IMG/VR virus record: IMGVR_UViG_3300027374_000004
Length of the DNA: 20,000 nucleotides
DNA from: an uncultured virus (IMG/VR IMGVR_UViG_3300027374_000004)
Lineage: Duplodnaviria; Heunggongvirae; Uroviricota; Caudoviricetes
Reading direction: 5' to 3' (one strand)
A program made the position numbers and the translations under genes. Under the pieces are notes generated by a model. The model was not told the origin of the DNA. It made no database searches and saw only the letters and a list, made by a program, of their open reading frames with translations. Shown here one piece after another: positions 15,931 to 19,153 of this stretch (positions within the stretch are counted from its first letter, which is position 1; each line of letters opens with the position of its first letter).

Positions 15931-16209
15931 TCACCCCATCAGCAGATAGGCGACGACGACGCCCAGGATAATTGCCATACCCACGACAGCAATCAGCAGT
16001 CCCGTCAAATAGCTGCGTACCTCAAGACTATCCTCTATACACCACCTGCGAATCCGGTCACAATTTTCACGATTTTCTTGACTTAGCTTCTGGAAGGTTT
16101 TTATGAGATCGTCCATTTTCGCAGAAGCATCTTTGTAGGCCATTTCGTAGTGATCTATGGTGGCATTTTTGGTATCATTCTCACCAGACAAGGGGCACTT
16201 AAATTCCAT
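15931..16209 (-). CDS. Small protein with C-terminal transmembrane helix
   Basis: AAGGAGGTGA RBS; hydrophobic C-terminus. Confidence 0.75.
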   Translation of the reverse strand: MEFKCPLSGENDTKNATIDHYEMAYKDASAKMDDLIKTFQKLSQENRENCDRIRRWCIEDSLEVRSYLTGLLIAVVGMAIILGVVVAYLLMG

Positions 16210-16240
16210 TTAATTCACCTCCTTGTTTTCGTCTAAACAT

Positions 16241-16444
16241 TTAGACGTTTTCGGTAAAAAAAAGATCTGCTACTGTTGTGCCAAGAGCTTTTGCAATTTT
16301 TGCAAGGGTTTTGGTAGTCGCCTCTTTAGAATCATCGTTTTCGATCATAGAAATTGTTTGACGACTCACGCCACTTCGCTCGGCAAGTTCTTCTTGGGAC
16401 ATTTTTTTTGCCTTACGAAATTCCTTGATTTTGTATCCCATCAA
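16241..16444 (-). CDS. Cro-like XRE HTH regulator
   Basis: MSQEELAERSGVSRQTISMIEN; divergent from the repressor. Confidence 0.92.
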   Translation of the reverse strand: MMGYKIKEFRKAKKMSQEELAERSGVSRQTISMIENDDSKEATTKTLAKIAKALGTTVADLFFTENV

Positions 16445-16483
16445 ATTCCCACCTCCGTTCCGTCTAAATGTTTTGACATTTTA

Positions 16484-16512
16484 ATAATACAGCCGGCTCC
16501 TGCTGTTGTCAA
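16484..16512 (-). promoter_or_regulatory. Early (cro) promoter
   Basis: TTGACA-17bp-TATTAT on the minus strand. Confidence 0.75.
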
Positions 16513-16553
16513 GTGCTTTTTACAGATTCTGTCAAAAATTTTTTACATTCCCC

Positions 16554-16582
16554 TTGACAACGCCATATCTACAATGTAAAAT
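16554..16582 (+). promoter_or_regulatory. Repressor promoter
   Basis: TTGACA-17bp-TAAAAT. Confidence 0.75.
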
Positions 16583-16612
16583 CTTATTGTCAAGTAGAAA
16601 GAGGGGGAGCAC

Positions 16613-17239
16613 ATGACATTAGCCAAATTGATTTCAGAATACAGGAAATCACATGGATTTTCTCAGCGACAAATGGGAGCTCAATGCGGCTTGTCAACTG
16701 GCTATATTTCCTTAATTGAAAAAGAAGTAAATCCACAAACGGGAAAGCAAATGATTCCCACCCTTAATGTCTTAAACAAAATTGCAAAGGGCATGAATAT
16801 GACGATTGATGAGCTCTTTTCCGTGTGTGACGATATGCCCGTCAATACAAGTGAAAGCGAAACTGAATCAGAGCCAAGTTTTACAGGAGAACAAATTGGT
16901 CACCGCATCAAAGAGTGCCGTGAAAGAATTGGTATAACTCAAACTGATCTTGCTAACTCAATCGGTGAATTAAAGCAAACAATATATAAATATGAATCTG
17001 GTTTTATTGAAAATATCCCGATTAAGAAGCTGGTGCTTATAGCTGAACATTTGAAAGTGTCTCCAGGTTACCTTATGGGCTGGGAAGAACACCCGGATCA
17101 AAAAGAAAAACCTGCCCCCAAGGAAGGGGACAAGCTTAGTTTGGAGATTATGAATTTGTTTTTTTCGTTGCCGGAAGAGAAGCAGCGGGAGGCCTTACAC
17201 TATCTCCGCTATCTTGCAGAGAGCGAAGGAAGGAAATAA
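16613..17239 (+). CDS. Phage repressor with two tandem XRE HTH domains and a short C-terminal helical domain
   Basis: FSQRQMG..CGLSTGYISLIE and ITQTDLA..IGELKQTIYKYESG..YLMGWE; no S24 peptidase domain. Confidence 0.9.
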   Translation: MTLAKLISEYRKSHGFSQRQMGAQCGLSTGYISLIEKEVNPQTGKQMIPTLNVLNKIAKGMNMTIDELFSVCDDMPVNTSESETESEPSFTGEQIGHRIKECRERIGITQTDLANSIGELKQTIYKYESGFIENIPIKKLVLIAEHLKVSPGYLMGWEEHPDQKEKPAPKEGDKLSLEIMNLFFSLPEEKQREALHYLRYLAESEGRK

Positions 17240-17309
17240 GCGCAAGCTTCTTTTCGTTTGACAGAGCGCAAATTTCCCGGTACATGAGATCCAGTTCTTT
17301 CACATTCAA
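17148..17309 (-). CDS. Small antisense protein (53 aa) resembling the repressor C-terminus; candidate anti-repressor
   Basis: TTG 17309 follows AGAAAGAAGTGA; upstream TGTGTTATAAT; peptide similarity to the repressor tail. Confidence 0.55.
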   Translation of the reverse strand: MNVKELDLMYREICALSNEKKLALISFLRSLQDSGDSVRPPAASLPATKKTNS

Positions 17310-17393
17310 GACAATCACTTCTTTCTGTTTTGCTGTGCTCGGGAGGTGAAAGAATTGTAGCAAAATCTACAGGACTTTGCTTGAAGATGGAAG

Positions 17394-17431
17394 ATTATAA
17401 CACATGGCCGAAACCGGCAACATTATGTTGC
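17394..17431 (-). promoter_or_regulatory. Leftward extended -10 promoter with upstream palindrome
   Basis: TGTGTTATAAT (17404-17394, minus); GCAACAT-T-ATGTTGC at 17417-17431. Confidence 0.55.
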
Positions 17432-17467
17432 GGTTGAAATAAAATAAGCATACAACGAGGGGATTGC

Positions 17468-17941
17468 ATGGAAGAAAAAAAGTATGAAATTGAAGTACCA
17501 TTATCCTATGGATCGCTTTGTATTGATGGAAGTAATCTTATCATTGTACAAAAGAAATCCGAAGAAATAATTCCTATTGCAAATATTCAATCTTTCTATC
17601 TGTCTGAGCCAAAAGGTTATGTTAGACCTAGGGGGAAAATCAAATTCACAACTGCGGCACATGGAACCGTGGATATTGTCAATTTAGGATTTGGAATAAG
17701 TAGTGCTTCTGACAGCGGACGTCAATTCGTTTATTATGAAGAAGATTATGAGGCCGCAAAGCAAATGAGAGATTACATTTCAAATTTTAACTCCACACCC
17801 AAAAATGTGAATGTACAGCCTCACAAAGAGGAACCGGTATCTACAGCAGATGAGATTAGAAAGTTAAAAGCATTGCTTGACGAAGGAATATTGACCCAAG
17901 AAGAGTTTGCGGCCAAGAAGAAGCAACTGCTAAACCTATAA
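17468..17941 (+). CDS. SHOCT domain-containing protein
   Basis: C-terminal ADEIRKLKALLDEGILTQEEFAAKKKQLL; GAGGGG RBS. Confidence 0.88.
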   Translation: MEEKKYEIEVPLSYGSLCIDGSNLIIVQKKSEEIIPIANIQSFYLSEPKGYVRPRGKIKFTTAAHGTVDIVNLGFGISSASDSGRQFVYYEEDYEAAKQMRDYISNFNSTPKNVNVQPHKEEPVSTADEIRKLKALLDEGILTQEEFAAKKKQLLNL

Positions 17942-18020
17942 AAATAGAAAATGCCCTCCGGCGCTACCAACACCAGAGGGCAAGGAGATCTACCGGCGGG
18001 AACCGGCAGAATAATCGTGC
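17941..18020 (-). ncRNA. Putative ~80-nt antisense RNA to the integrase leader, ending in an intrinsic terminator (hairpin 17952-17982)
   Basis: Minus-strand TTGATT-17bp-TACAAT (18055-18027); stem TGCCCTCTGGTG/CGCCGGAGGGCA with G-U pairs on minus, then TTTTCTATTTT. Confidence 0.6.
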
Positions 18021-18037
18021 AAATATATTGTACCGCT

Positions 18038-18067
18038 TCCCGCCAAAAAAATCAAGGCGGGATTTTT
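18038..18067 (+). terminator. Intrinsic terminator just before the integrase RBS (candidate attenuator)
   Basis: TCCCGCC-11nt-GGCGGGA-TTTTT. Confidence 0.6.
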
Positions 18068-18097
18068 GCGCCCTTTTTTAGGAGGTATAGGTACAAT

Positions 18098-19153
18098 ATG
18101 GCAAAAGCAAAAAGGCTACCTAGCGGGAGCTGGAGAGTACAAGTGTTTGTCGGTAAGGAGGACGGAAAAAGAAGATATAAGTCCTTTACTGCGGAATCAA
18201 AATGGGAGGCTGAATATCAAGCCAGCCAGTATGCCAGGAATCGCAAGGAGAGAAAAAATGTGATGAATATCACCGTCTGTGAAGCTGTTACTCGTTATAT
18301 AGACAGCAAGGATGGGGTTATTTCACCGGCTACAATAAGAGGATATCGATCAGTGCAGAACAATGGGCTGCAGAATTTGAAAGACGTCAAATTGAAGGAT
18401 CTGACCAATGAAGCTATCCAGCAGCAAATTCGAGCCAAAATTAAAACCCATTCCCCTAAGACGGTCTTAAATGAACATGGGATACTAACCGCTGCTCTAA
18501 ATATGTTTTATCCTGAATTTCGGGTTAATGTATCTTTACCTCAGAAGAAAAAACGCCCTCAAACTGTTCCCACTGATACCCAGGTAAAAGAGCTCCTGGC
18601 TCTGGCAAAGGGAAAGGACATAGAATTGCCGATCATACTTGCTGCCATGGGGAGCTTGCGTGAAGGAGAAATAGCTCCTCTAAATGTTGAAGATATCTTA
18701 GAATACGGTGTAAGGGTAAATAAGGATATGGTCAGAGATCAATACCAAAAGTGGGTAATCAAGATGACTCCAAAAACAGATGCCGGGAACCGTGTTGCGC
18801 CATTGCCCAAAAAAGTAATACAAATGCTGAAAGAGTACACCAAAGAGAAAGAAAGTGAAGATAGGATTTTCGTGATGACCCCAGAGGGAATATATGACCG
18901 TTACAAGAAACTAAGAAAGAAATGCGGAATGGACAAATGCCGTTTCCATGATCTTCGGCACTATTATGCCAGCGTTGCCCATTTGTTAGGTGTACCAGAT
19001 CAATATATCATGAAAAATGGTGGCTGGACAGACAAAGGTACTCTCCAGCAAATATACCAACACGCTCTTTCGGATCACGAAGAAATGGAGGACAAGAAGA
19101 TTACAGGCCACTTTGAAATGTTTCTAGACACAAAAGGCGAAGAATCAGAATGA
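18098..19153 (+). CDS. int: Tyrosine recombinase / phage integrase (351 aa)
   Basis: AGGAGG RBS; N-terminal arm-binding domain; LREGEI, TPKT, FHDLRH, GGW, IYQH. Confidence 0.95.
   Translation: MAKAKRLPSGSWRVQVFVGKEDGKRRYKSFTAESKWEAEYQASQYARNRKERKNVMNITVCEAVTRYIDSKDGVISPATIRGYRSVQNNGLQNLKDVKLKDLTNEAIQQQIRAKIKTHSPKTVLNEHGILTAALNMFYPEFRVNVSLPQKKKRPQTVPTDTQVKELLALAKGKDIELPIILAAMGSLREGEIAPLNVEDILEYGVRVNKDMVRDQYQKWVIKMTPKTDAGNRVAPLPKKVIQMLKEYTKEKESEDRIFVMTPEGIYDRYKKLRKKCGMDKCRFHDLRHYYASVAHLLGVPDQYIMKNGGWTDKGTLQQIYQHALSDHEEMEDKKITGHFEMFLDTKGEESE

What the first reader, a model, noticed from the sequence alone, without database searches (positions are those of the whole stretch)
17148..17431. Antisense mini-gene encoding a mimic of the repressor's own C-terminal domain (candidate SinI-style anti-repressor)
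Seen: a 53-aa minus-strand ORF overlaps the repressor 3' end by 92 nt. It has a plausible RBS, a consensus extended -10 (TGTGTTATAAT) and nearby palindromes (TGTAG-N6-CTACA near 17356-17371; GCAACAT-T-ATGTTGC at 17417-17431). Its core LSNEKKLALISFLRSLQDS aligns without gaps to the repressor tail LPEEKQREALHYLRYLAES. The shared DNA around 17200-17230 is an imperfect palindrome, so both strands encode related helices. The repressor has no autocleavage domain and no ImmA-type protease lies in the module. Established: Bacillus SinI inactivates SinR by mimicking its C-terminal oligomerisation helices. Inference: this peptide poisons repressor dimers and its transcript is also antisense to the repressor mRNA, giving a cleavage-free induction switch.
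Basis: partly seen in the sequence, partly recalled or inferred. Interest (0 to 1): 0.8.

Follow-up and report, generated by a model that had tools for sequence, protein, structure and literature searches.

The report
Repressor-tail mimic: small anti-repressor gene
A real 53-codon gene lies tail-to-tail with a prophage repressor gene and encodes a copy of the repressor's own two-helix tail, so it probably wakes the virus by prying repressor molecules apart, much like a switch recently described in Bacillus phages.

Summary
A 53-aa minus-strand ORF (17148-17309, TTG start) overlaps the last 92 nt of a 208-aa 2xHTH prophage repressor. It is a real gene. A profile built from 19 database proteins, without the window, scores it at E=3.5e-13. 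It belongs to an unnamed family of about 50-aa proteins: 22 small cluster representatives among 1.84 billion. In 6 of 6 distinct loci with known context the small gene is convergent with an XRE repressor and overlaps its 3' end by 77-92 nt. Those repressors carry a homologous tail even where the DNA-binding domain differs. Tail and peptide profiles align gap-free over 31 columns (E=4.6e-8), and both model as helical hairpins. The unit has its own -10 elements and a terminator hairpin inside the repressor's linker codons, kept by compensatory changes. Relatives with the same DNA-binding domain carry an S24 domain or an M78 protease instead. The likeliest function is a SinI/AimX-type anti-repressor. 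Binding, de-repression and the trigger are inferred, not shown. A 2025 preprint describes the same logic in arbitrium phages, so I call this a new variant.

The parts
17148..17309 (-). Small gene, 53 aa, TTG start, TAA stop. Predicted helix 3-14, turn (LSNEKK), helix 18-34, then a disordered C-terminal part.
   Evidence: ORF; E=3.5e-13 against a profile of 19 family proteins built without it; AF2, pLDDT 94-98 over residues 1-30
17315..17325 (-). Weak Shine-Dalgarno-like stretch GAAAGAAGTGA ahead of the TTG start
   Evidence: It aligns with AGAAAGAGG (L001) and AAAGGAG (L125, L128).
17354..17362 (-). Extended -10 TGCTACAAT. This is the promoter element that aligns with the TATAAT of relatives. 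It lies inside the palindrome TGTAG-N6-CTACA (17356-17371).
   Evidence: DNA alignment of WIN, L001, L125, L128; palindrome
17394..17404 (-).
   Evidence: read (ATGTTG-18-TATAAT with TG). It aligns with GTGATAAT of L125 and L128.
17417..17431 (.). Palindrome GCAACATTATGTTGC over the -35 region of the upstream promoter. It lies between the divergent small gene and the SHOCT gene. Candidate operator; the binding protein is unknown.
   Evidence: It is unique in the window.
17098..17137 (-). Intrinsic-terminator-like hairpin plus T-run for the small gene's transcript. It lies inside the repressor's linker codons (KEKPAPKEGDKL).
   Evidence: 12 pairs, 6 G-C, tail TTCTTTTTGA; 12 consensus pairs in 4 loci, 6 with compensatory changes; 10 of 20 such loci against 1 of 83 controls
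16613..17239 (+). Prophage repressor, 208 aa: HTH_3 (about residues 1-70), HTH_3 (99-154), disordered linker, two-helix tail
   Evidence: phrog_8, phrog_3 repressors
17123..17236 (+). Repressor C-terminal helical hairpin (residues about 171-208), homologous to the peptide. Presumed oligomerisation domain.
   Evidence: helices 22-36 and 39-58 of the 59-aa fragment, pLDDT about 92
16241..16444 (-). Cro-like HTH gene divergent from the repressor. The intergenic region carries TTGTCAAG three times, the presumed repressor operators.

Best explanation
The 53-aa minus-strand ORF is a genuine small gene. It has its own promoter(s), ribosome-binding site and terminator, and it lies convergent with the prophage repressor gene, overlapping its last 92 nt. 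Its product is a two-helix hairpin that is a diverged inverted duplicate of the repressor's own C-terminal two-helix tail.

The likeliest mechanism is that of SinI on SinR and of AimX on AimC. When the small gene is switched on, the peptide pairs with the repressor tail in place of a second repressor tail. This blocks repressor oligomerisation and therefore cooperative operator binding. The cro-side early operon is then released and the prophage is induced without any cleavage of the repressor.

Shown here by computation: the gene is real and conserved; peptide and tail are homologous; the gene pair is linked; the transcription signals are present. Inferred: the tail is the oligomerisation surface; the peptide binds it; the outcome is de-repression. 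Unknown: the signal that turns the small gene on.
For: Real gene.
- A profile of the window and L001 peptides found 27 proteins at E<=1e-3 among 1.84e9. Of these, 22 are small proteins of 48-83 aa with the same layout. None carries a name.
- The window ORF scores E=3.5e-13 (48.9 bits) against a profile of the 19 others.
- The conserved N-terminal half (KELLxxLRLLxxLSxEEK) is encoded outside the repressor gene, so it is not a by-product of repressor constraint.

Linkage.
- In 6 of 6 distinct loci where I could see context, the small gene is convergent with an HTH_3 gene and overlaps its 3' end by 77-92 nt. The loci are WIN, L001, L125-127, L128-129, L131 and L132.
- The tails of those repressors are homologous.
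- L131 and L132 have a different architecture upstream of the tail: one HTH_3 plus a middle region, not recovered by any of the three repressor-based locus scans. I did not align their HTH to the window's. So tail plus peptide looks like a portable cassette.

Mimicry.
- Tails against peptides: E=4.6e-8, 31 columns, no gaps.
- The best non-peptide hit of the peptide profile among 13,140 six-frame ORF fragments is the window repressor's own tail (E=0.02-0.03).
- Both parts model as helix-turn-helix hairpins with the turn at aligned positions.

Transcription unit.
- Conserved -10 elements.
- A terminator hairpin just after the stop, with 6 of 12 pairs showing compensatory changes. Such hairpins occur in 10 of 20 loci of this kind against 1 of 83 controls.

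Module replacement. The same HTH1 domain (64-73% identical) is joined to Peptidase_S24 in L039 and followed by a Peptidase_M78 gene in L002.

Co-folding of tail and peptide. The verdict was weak support: ipSAE 0.41 against a best control of 0.02, contacts agreeing in at least 93% between runs, partner pLDDT at least 66. In the calibration, 116 of 157 solved complexes and 2 of 215 mismatched pairs reached the mark. At a score of 0.60 or under, only 18 of the 157 solved complexes passed, as did both mismatches that passed.

Precedent. AimX (29-80 aa) is convergent with aimC and overlaps it. It binds AimC's C-terminal oligomerisation domain and relieves repression; a start-to-stop mutant abolishes the effect (bioRxiv 10.1101/2025.11.23.689978; passages and sections 9 and 11 read).
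Against: - No expression data. No RNA run was listed for this DNA.
- The window copy has a TTG start and a weakened SD (GAAG where relatives have GAGG). It is not among the predicted proteins of the big collections, so it may be poorly translated.
- Co-folding gave only weak support.
- That the tail mediates repressor oligomerisation is assumed from SinR and AimC; it was not tested here.
- Within the close family, cognate peptide and tail are not each other's best match. WIN ranks 7 of 23, and L125 and L128 rank 11-13 of 23. Specific covariation is therefore not shown for this subfamily.
- No known trigger site was found. There is no GAAC-N4-GTTC box with up to 2 mismatches in the 170 nt upstream (the consensus is recalled from memory).
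- Foldseek found no solved structure like the peptide (best E=6.3), and there is no Pfam SinI match.
Confidence: 0.65

Rival explanations
1. The peptide binds the repressor tail but acts as a positive or modulating partner. For example it could cap, stabilise or retarget the repressor, or set the lysogeny threshold during infection, rather than act as an inducer.
For: The same homology and linkage data fit this reading. No trigger site or SOS box was found at its promoter. The promoters look constitutive-like in several relatives, for example TTTACA-17-TATAAT in L001 and TTGACA-17-TATAAT in L040.
Against: A monomeric hairpin that occupies a dimerisation surface is expected to break oligomers. 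Both studied analogues are antagonists: SinI (start of the abstract of PMC3163267, seen in the listing) and AimX. In relatives the cassette sits where S24 or M78 inactivation modules sit.
Confidence: 0.12
2. The minus-strand transcript itself is the regulator, through antisense pairing with the repressor mRNA 3' end or through convergent transcription. On this reading the ORF is secondary.
For: Geometry. A transcript from 17347-17387 to about 17100 would be complementary to roughly the last 140 nt of the repressor mRNA. The terminator is conserved.
Against: There is protein-level conservation of about 50-aa ORFs across 22 cluster representatives that are under 50% identical to one another. Start codon and SD are conserved. 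There is homology to the tail. In AimX/AimC, recoding the overlap changed nothing and a start-to-stop mutant lost function.
Confidence: 0.1
3. The peptide acts mainly in trans on other XRE regulators with similar tails, either co-resident prophages or host regulators. That would be cross-talk rather than self-induction.
For: Two-helix tails of this type are common among XRE repressors sampled here. The window peptide scores higher against 6 non-cognate tails than against its own (rank 7 of 23). L001 has a second HTH_3 gene with a similar-looking tail next to the small gene.
Against: Gene-pair linkage is strict, 6 of 6. Across 23 pairs cognate scores exceed non-cognate ones, 30.5 against 25.1, permutation p about 1e-4.
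Confidence: 0.08
4. The ORF is a chance open frame created by the palindromic, helix-coding DNA at the repressor's 3' end.
For: Antisense frames of at least 30 codons are common near repressor ends in the sampled loci. The window copy has a weak start.
Against: More than 40% of the ORF lies outside the repressor gene, and that part is conserved.
Confidence: 0.02

Closest known systems
AimX-AimC of extended arbitrium modules in Bacillus phages (Kabel et al., bioRxiv 10.1101/2025.11.23.689978). I read the abstract and outline, found passages, and sections 9 and 11.
   Same: A small ORF (29-80 aa there, 53 aa here) lies convergent with an HTH phage repressor and overlaps its 3' end in antisense (30 bp there, 92 nt here). 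The repressor is an N-terminal HTH, a disordered linker and a small helical C-terminal oligomerisation domain. [quoted passage not shown] A cro-like gene is divergent from the repressor.
   Different: No aimR or aimP lies upstream. Here the small gene is preceded by a divergent SHOCT-domain gene and the integrase. The host range is uncultured gut Clostridia-type genomes, not Bacillus (record titles). Here the peptide is demonstrably homologous to the repressor's own tail. I saw no such statement in the passages I read. Sequence relatedness to AimX or AimC was not tested because I had no sequences in hand. The AimC C-terminal domain described there includes a beta-hairpin between the helices; the models here show none.
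SinI-SinR of Bacillus subtilis (start of the abstract of PMC3163267, seen in the search listing; the rest is recalled)
   Same: A small helical antagonist shares the heterodimer-forming helices with the C-terminus of an XRE-type HTH repressor and abolishes its DNA binding by forming a heterodimer.
   Different: There is no match to Pfam SinI (PF08671; the accession and family name are recalled) for the peptide or the tail at E<=5. The gene order differs: sinI lies upstream of sinR in the same direction (recalled), whereas here the genes are convergent and overlapping. This system controls a prophage, not biofilm genes.
Small trans-acting antirepressors of prophages: Gifsy GfoA/GfhA and 186 Tum (LexA-controlled), and the Vibrio phage smORF modules (PMC3121763 and PMC10432266, seen in search listings only; details recalled)
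   Same: Cleavage-free induction by a small protein that inactivates a repressor lacking a self-cleavage domain.
   Different: Those proteins are not copies of the repressor's own domain and are not encoded antisense to its 3' end. No LexA-type box was found here.
ImmR-ImmA and S24-type repressors
   Same: Same position in the immunity region. Close relatives of the window's first HTH domain use these modules instead: L002 has an M78 gene and L039 an S24 domain.
   Different: Those are proteolytic inactivation modules. The window has neither domain.

Membership tests
The unnamed ~50-aa protein family found here (alignment A4) | Significant match to a profile built without the window sequence | tested here: met
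   E=3.5e-13, 48.9 bits, profile positions 5-50 of 51
The unnamed ~50-aa protein family found here (alignment A4) | Convergent with an XRE repressor that carries the homologous tail, and overlapping its 3' end | tested here: met
   92-nt overlap in the window. Six of 6 distinct loci overlap by 77-92 nt.
SinI/SinR (Sin domain) | Sequence match to the Pfam SinI domain in antagonist and repressor tail | tested here: not met
   No SinI hit at E<=5 for 15 peptides and 2 tails
SinI/SinR (Sin domain) | The antagonist shares a homologous helical-hairpin domain with the repressor's C-terminus | tested here: met
   hhalign E=4.6e-8; matching helix-turn-helix models
SinI/SinR (Sin domain) | A 1:1 heterodimer forms that prevents repressor oligomerisation and DNA binding | tested here: inconclusive
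   Co-fold verdict: weak support. Score 0.41 against a best control of 0.02. In the calibration 116 of 157 solved complexes and 2 of 215 mismatches reached the mark; at 0.60 or under only 18 of 157 solved complexes did, and both passing mismatches.
AimX/AimC extended arbitrium module | Small ORF convergent with, and partly antisense to, the repressor gene, with a cro-like gene divergent from the repressor | tested here: met
   definition
AimX/AimC extended arbitrium module | aimR and aimP lie directly upstream of the small ORF in the same direction | tested here: not met
   Upstream of the small gene are a plus-strand SHOCT gene (17468-17941) and the integrase (17951-19153). There is no gene on the small gene's strand.
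AimX/AimC extended arbitrium module | Sequence homology to AimX or AimC | not tested
   No AimX or AimC sequence was in hand. tblastn of a family member against 50,697 phage records gave only one hit, at E=0.8.
LexA-controlled antirepressors (Tum, Gifsy type) | A LexA box in the antirepressor promoter | tested here: not met
   GAAC-N4-GTTC with up to 2 mismatches: none in 170 nt upstream in WIN, L001, L125, L128, L132 or L038; one 2-mismatch site in L131. The consensus is recalled and may differ in these hosts.
ImmR/ImmA or S24 self-cleaving repressors | A Peptidase_M78 gene next to the repressor, or a Peptidase_S24 domain in it | tested here: not met
   Neither was found in the 29 window ORFs scanned. 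Both occur in relatives L002 and L039.

The most novel reading that the evidence does not exclude
'Two-helix tail plus convergent mimic peptide' is a portable, self-contained induction cassette. It arose by inverted duplication of a repressor's oligomerisation tail, with its terminator written into the repressor's linker codons, and it has been grafted onto many unrelated XRE DNA-binding domains in prophages of gut Firmicutes. It works independently of arbitrium signalling, SOS cleavage and ImmA proteases, and it answers to a still unknown host signal acting at palindromes in its promoter or leader (GCAACATTATGTTGC here, CTGCCGGCAG in relatives). On this reading AimX/AimC is one branch of a much wider class. 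Support for the wider class: 20 of about 103 distinct XRE loci sampled here have a convergent SD-preceded 30-60-aa ORF, and peptides resemble their cognate tails more than non-cognate ones.
Probability: 0.45. Interest if true: 0.75.

Novelty: new variant of a known kind. Interest (0 to 1): 0.62.

Why it matters
Most prophages of gut anaerobes have repressors with no recognisable self-cleavage domain, and what induces them is largely unknown. This cassette gives a concrete, testable switch: a peptide of about 50 aa that gene callers and family libraries miss. It has no Pfam or PHROG family, and the window's copy is absent from the protein collections. The finding extends the SinI/AimX principle beyond Bacillus and beyond arbitrium. 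It shows a clear evolutionary route, inverted duplication of the repressor's own tail with two reading frames and a terminator sharing the same DNA. It also supplies a search rule for finding more such switches: a convergent small ORF preceded by an SD and followed by a hairpin inside the repressor's linker. Finding the factor that controls its promoter would identify a non-SOS induction signal in gut bacteria.

Tried and rejected
- Word-indexed protein search with the peptide: no candidate.
- Pattern scan of viral contigs with the peptide: 74 pattern matches, none confirmed.
- Alignment A4 was too variable for a locus scan.
- A scan with P0030 returned 7 loci that are all false: the match lies inside one long open frame of more than 490 aa, unrelated to the small gene.
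- Phage GenBank records: blastn of the region hit only about 100 bp of the SHOCT gene in Lactobacillus phages. tblastn of a family member gave one hit at E=0.8.
- RNA evidence: no RNA holder was listed for 16200-18000.
- Pfam and PHROGs on 15 peptides: nothing below E=0.02. The window tail gave a sub-threshold DUF2281 hit (E=0.0027, 18.7 bits against a cut-off of 26.5).
- PDB by sequence and Foldseek of the peptide model: nothing meaningful.
- ESM Atlas: best score 0.84, unnamed clusters.
- Rfam on 16900-17600: only a chance-level hit at E=0.69.
- A seed HMM from just two tails ranked the L001 peptide first and the window peptide fourth among distinct non-self hits, but at E=0.13 and 0.86. It was too weak alone and was superseded.
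- Lenient iterative tail profiling drifted, and I did not use it.
- Codon-position counts in the 20 non-overlapping codons (differences at positions 1/2/3 = 50/38/62 over 6 pairs) point the right way. The sequences are too diverged for a formal test.
- CTGCCGGCAG, the palindrome of relatives, is not at the window's promoter.
- The repressor operators (TTGTCAAG, three copies in the cro-repressor gap) are absent from the small gene's promoter.
Full report
**Setting.** The window is the left arm of a virus record of about 50 kb. It ends in an integrase gene (17951-19153) next to three tRNA genes. The immunity region reads as follows:
- a cro-like HTH gene (16241-16444, minus strand);
- a 168-bp gap with two face-to-face consensus promoters and three copies of TTGTCAAG;
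- the repressor (16613-17239, plus strand; 208 aa, HTH_3 twice);
- a 228-bp gap;
- a SHOCT-domain gene (17468-17941, plus strand);
- the integrase.
The genes to the left are typical early phage genes, including SSB, RecU, methylases and an AAA_24 ATPase.

**Checking the observation.** The minus-strand frame is open from 17363 to 17148. The 53-aa version starts at TTG 17309 and overlaps the repressor by 92 nt. The extended -10 TGTGTTATAAT (17404..17394) and both palindromes are present. The repressor has no S24 domain, and none of the 29 window ORFs I scanned is an M78 protease. One small correction: a second extended -10 exists, described under "A transcription unit of its own".

**Is it a gene?**
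- The first sign came from L001, an uncultured Clostridiales genome. Its repressor shares 79% identity over the first HTH and has a related tail. It has a convergent 50-aa ORF that is 38-43% identical to the window's, starting at the aligned position. That ORF has AAAGAGG before its ATG, a TTTACA-17-TATAAT promoter and a hairpin plus T-run after its stop.
- A profile of the two peptides, run over 1.84 billion protein representatives, returned 27 hits at E<=1e-3. Of these, 22 are proteins of 48-83 aa with the same pattern: M-x-SSKELLxxLRLLxxLSxEEKxxLLxFLxxLQDSxDSxxPP. The other 5 are long, multi-stretch matches that I set aside. None of the 8 clusters I looked up carries a name.
- A profile of 19 of these, without the window, finds the window ORF at E=3.5e-13 among 13,140 six-frame fragments. 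I left out the three N-terminally extended calls P0007, P0014 and P0021.
- The best-conserved stretch is the N-terminal half. It is encoded beyond the repressor's stop codon, so repressor constraint cannot explain it.
- Pfam, PHROGs, PDB sequences, Foldseek and the ESM Atlas give no name.

**Linkage to the repressor tail.** I could see genomic context for six distinct family members: WIN, L001 (=L130), L125-127, L128-129, L131 and L132. In 6 of 6 the small gene is convergent with an HTH_3 gene and overlaps its 3' end by 77-92 nt. The C-termini of those HTH genes align with one another: (D/S)LEIxxxxLSLSxxKKQEALxYLRYLA. L131 and L132 have a different architecture upstream of the tail (one HTH_3 plus a middle region) and different putative operators. 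None of the three repressor-based locus scans recovered them, though I did not align their HTH to the window's. L001 and L125-129 have one HTH; the window has two. The tail and the peptide gene therefore move together as a cassette.

Conversely, close relatives of the window's first HTH carry other inactivation modules at the same place. L039 has a Peptidase_S24 domain, and L002 is followed by a Peptidase_M78 gene. The family is rare: 4 of 401 genomes sampled from the order of L001's genome had a match, and no cultured phage record did.

**Mimicry.**
- Six cognate tails against 20 peptides align over 31 columns without a gap (E=4.6e-8, probability 94.9%). This pairs LEIMNLFFSLPEEKQREALHYLRYLAESEGR with DLMYREICALSNEKKLALISFLRSLQDSGDS.
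- After the peptides themselves, the top hit of the peptide profile among 13,140 fragments is the window repressor's tail (E=0.02-0.03). The tails of L125-129 follow.
- AlphaFold2 models give the peptide helices 3-14 and 18-34 (pLDDT 94-98 over the first 30 residues) followed by a disordered C-terminal part. They give the tail two helices with the turn at the aligned position, after a low-confidence linker.
- Aligned residues are encoded at mirror-image positions about 17215. DNA remnants of that inverted duplication survive: 17174-17183 against 17246-17255. Only about 35 nt are shared by the two homologous segments, so the likeness is not a trivial effect of reading one palindrome twice.

**A transcription unit of its own.** Directly after the small gene's stop, on its strand, lies a 12-pair hairpin followed by TTCTTTTT (17137..17098). 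It sits inside the codons of the repressor's linker.
- The equivalent hairpin exists in L001, L125 and L128. Six of 12 consensus pairs are kept through changes on both sides, although the linker peptides differ.
- With a simple scan, such a hairpin follows the small ORF in 10 of 20 loci of this general kind, against 1 of 83 control loci at the matching position. Promoter-like sites occur in 10 of 20 against 17 of 83.
- In the DNA alignment the -10 of the relatives (TATAAT) lines up with the window's TGCTACAAT (17362..17354). This implies a leader of about 38 nt, as in L001. Two tandem promoters are possible.
- A transcript from the upstream promoter would first form the hairpin 17381..17359, which one search also flags as terminator-like.

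**Mechanism.** I propose that the tail is the repressor's oligomerisation surface and that the peptide competes for it. This would yield repressor-peptide heteromers that cannot bind operators cooperatively, so the early operon is released without proteolysis. This is the logic of two studied systems.
- SinI/SinR: the abstract seen states that the heterodimer-forming surface is conserved between the two proteins.
- AimX/AimC of arbitrium phages: there a 29-80-aa ORF is convergent with the repressor gene and overlaps it. It binds the C-terminal oligomerisation domain, blocks oligomerisation and DNA binding, and is needed for lysis. The antisense RNA was found not to matter.

Co-folding of tail and peptide gave weak support. 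The score was 0.41 against a best control of 0.02, with contacts agreeing in at least 93% between runs and partner pLDDT at least 66. In the calibration 116 of 157 solved complexes and 2 of 215 mismatches reached the mark; at 0.60 or under only 18 of the 157 did, as did both passing mismatches.

Binding, de-repression and the role of the tail are inferences. The trigger is unknown:
- there is no LexA-type box (the consensus is recalled);
- the repressor's TTGTCAAG sites are absent from this promoter;
- candidate operators are the two palindromes in the window;
- in relatives a CTGCCGGCAG site lies just after the -10, but it is not present in the window.

**Points against, or weak.**
- The window copy has a TTG start and a degraded SD. 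It is absent from the protein collections.
- There is no expression evidence.
- In pairwise scoring the window peptide ranks its own tail only 7th of 23, and L125 and L128 rank theirs 11th-13th. Co-variation is not shown inside this subfamily. Over all 23 pairs cognate scores exceed non-cognate ones (30.5 against 25.1, permutation p about 1e-4), but related loci are not independent.

**A wider pattern (lower confidence).** The sample comprises 116 fetched loci, about 103 distinct after removing duplicates. Twenty have a convergent 30-60-aa ORF with an ATG or GTG start and a 5-of-5 SD core, ending within about 130 nt inside to 20 nt beyond the repressor's stop. At least one of these (L093) looks spurious. 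Their peptides look like their repressors' tails, for example L062 (z=6.6), L047 (8.7) and L012 (3.4). Twelve tails against 12 peptides gave P=1.5e-4.

**Novelty.** Five literature searches turned up one direct analogue, the AimX/AimC preprint of November 2025. I found nothing on a stand-alone version, on Clostridia-type hosts, or on the peptide being a duplicate of the repressor's own tail. I therefore rate this a new variant of a known kind: a new, unnamed protein family and a non-arbitrium context, with the same principle.

Noticed in passing
window 16613-17239; L001 2501-2884; L002 2393-3318; L039 2501-3166: Domain shuffling at the repressor. The window's first HTH is 79% identical to L001, 73% to L002 and 64% to L039. 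It is followed by a second HTH plus tail in the window, by the tail alone in L001, by an unrelated C-terminus with an M78 protease gene next door in L002, and by a Peptidase_S24 domain in L039.
   Followed up: partly
L128 1965-1974; L131 1464-1473; L125 1965-1974 (1 mismatch); L001 about 2975-2989: A 10-bp palindrome CTGCCGGCAG lies a few bases after the -10 of the small gene in relatives, including L131, whose repressor has a different architecture and different putative operators. It is absent from their cro-repressor gaps and from the window's promoter. It may be the binding site of the unknown regulator of the cassette.
   Followed up: partly
window 17359-17381 (minus strand): A hairpin AGCAAAGTCCTGTAGATTTTGCT followed by ACAATTCTTT lies in the leader of the upstream promoter and contains the -10 of the downstream promoter. 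flags it as terminator-like. It may act as an attenuator or as an operator.
   Followed up: no
L014 2845-2982; L040 2847-2978; L107 2697-2807: A second class of convergent small ORFs (36-45 aa, ending in W-G-x) lies next to XRE repressors with two-helix tails. These touch the repressor gene's end rather than overlapping it deeply.
   Followed up: no
L012, L018, L038, L053, L062/L047, L071, L072, L076, L078, L082/L108, L086/L090, L103: Other XRE repressors with two-helix tails also have SD-preceded convergent ORFs of 34-55 aa overlapping their 3' ends by 44-110 nt, often followed by a hairpin. Their peptides resemble the cognate tails. These families are distinct from the window's.
   Followed up: partly
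L001 3133-3462: A second HTH_3 gene (109 aa), whose C-terminal stretch looks like a similar tail by eye, lies divergent from the small gene in L001. It could be its regulator or a second target.
   Followed up: no
window 17468-17941: A SHOCT-domain protein (157 aa, N-terminal part without a family) sits between the switch and the integrase. In relatives this slot holds different accessory genes: a SWIM zinc-finger protein in L125 and an ORF in L131 that looks like a lipoprotein by eye.
   Followed up: no
window 17232-17277: An inverted repeat GGAAATAAGCGC / GCGCAAATTTCC (12 nt, 83% complementary, 22 nt apart) spans the repressor's stop codon and lies within the small gene's coding region. No T-run follows it.
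   Followed up: no
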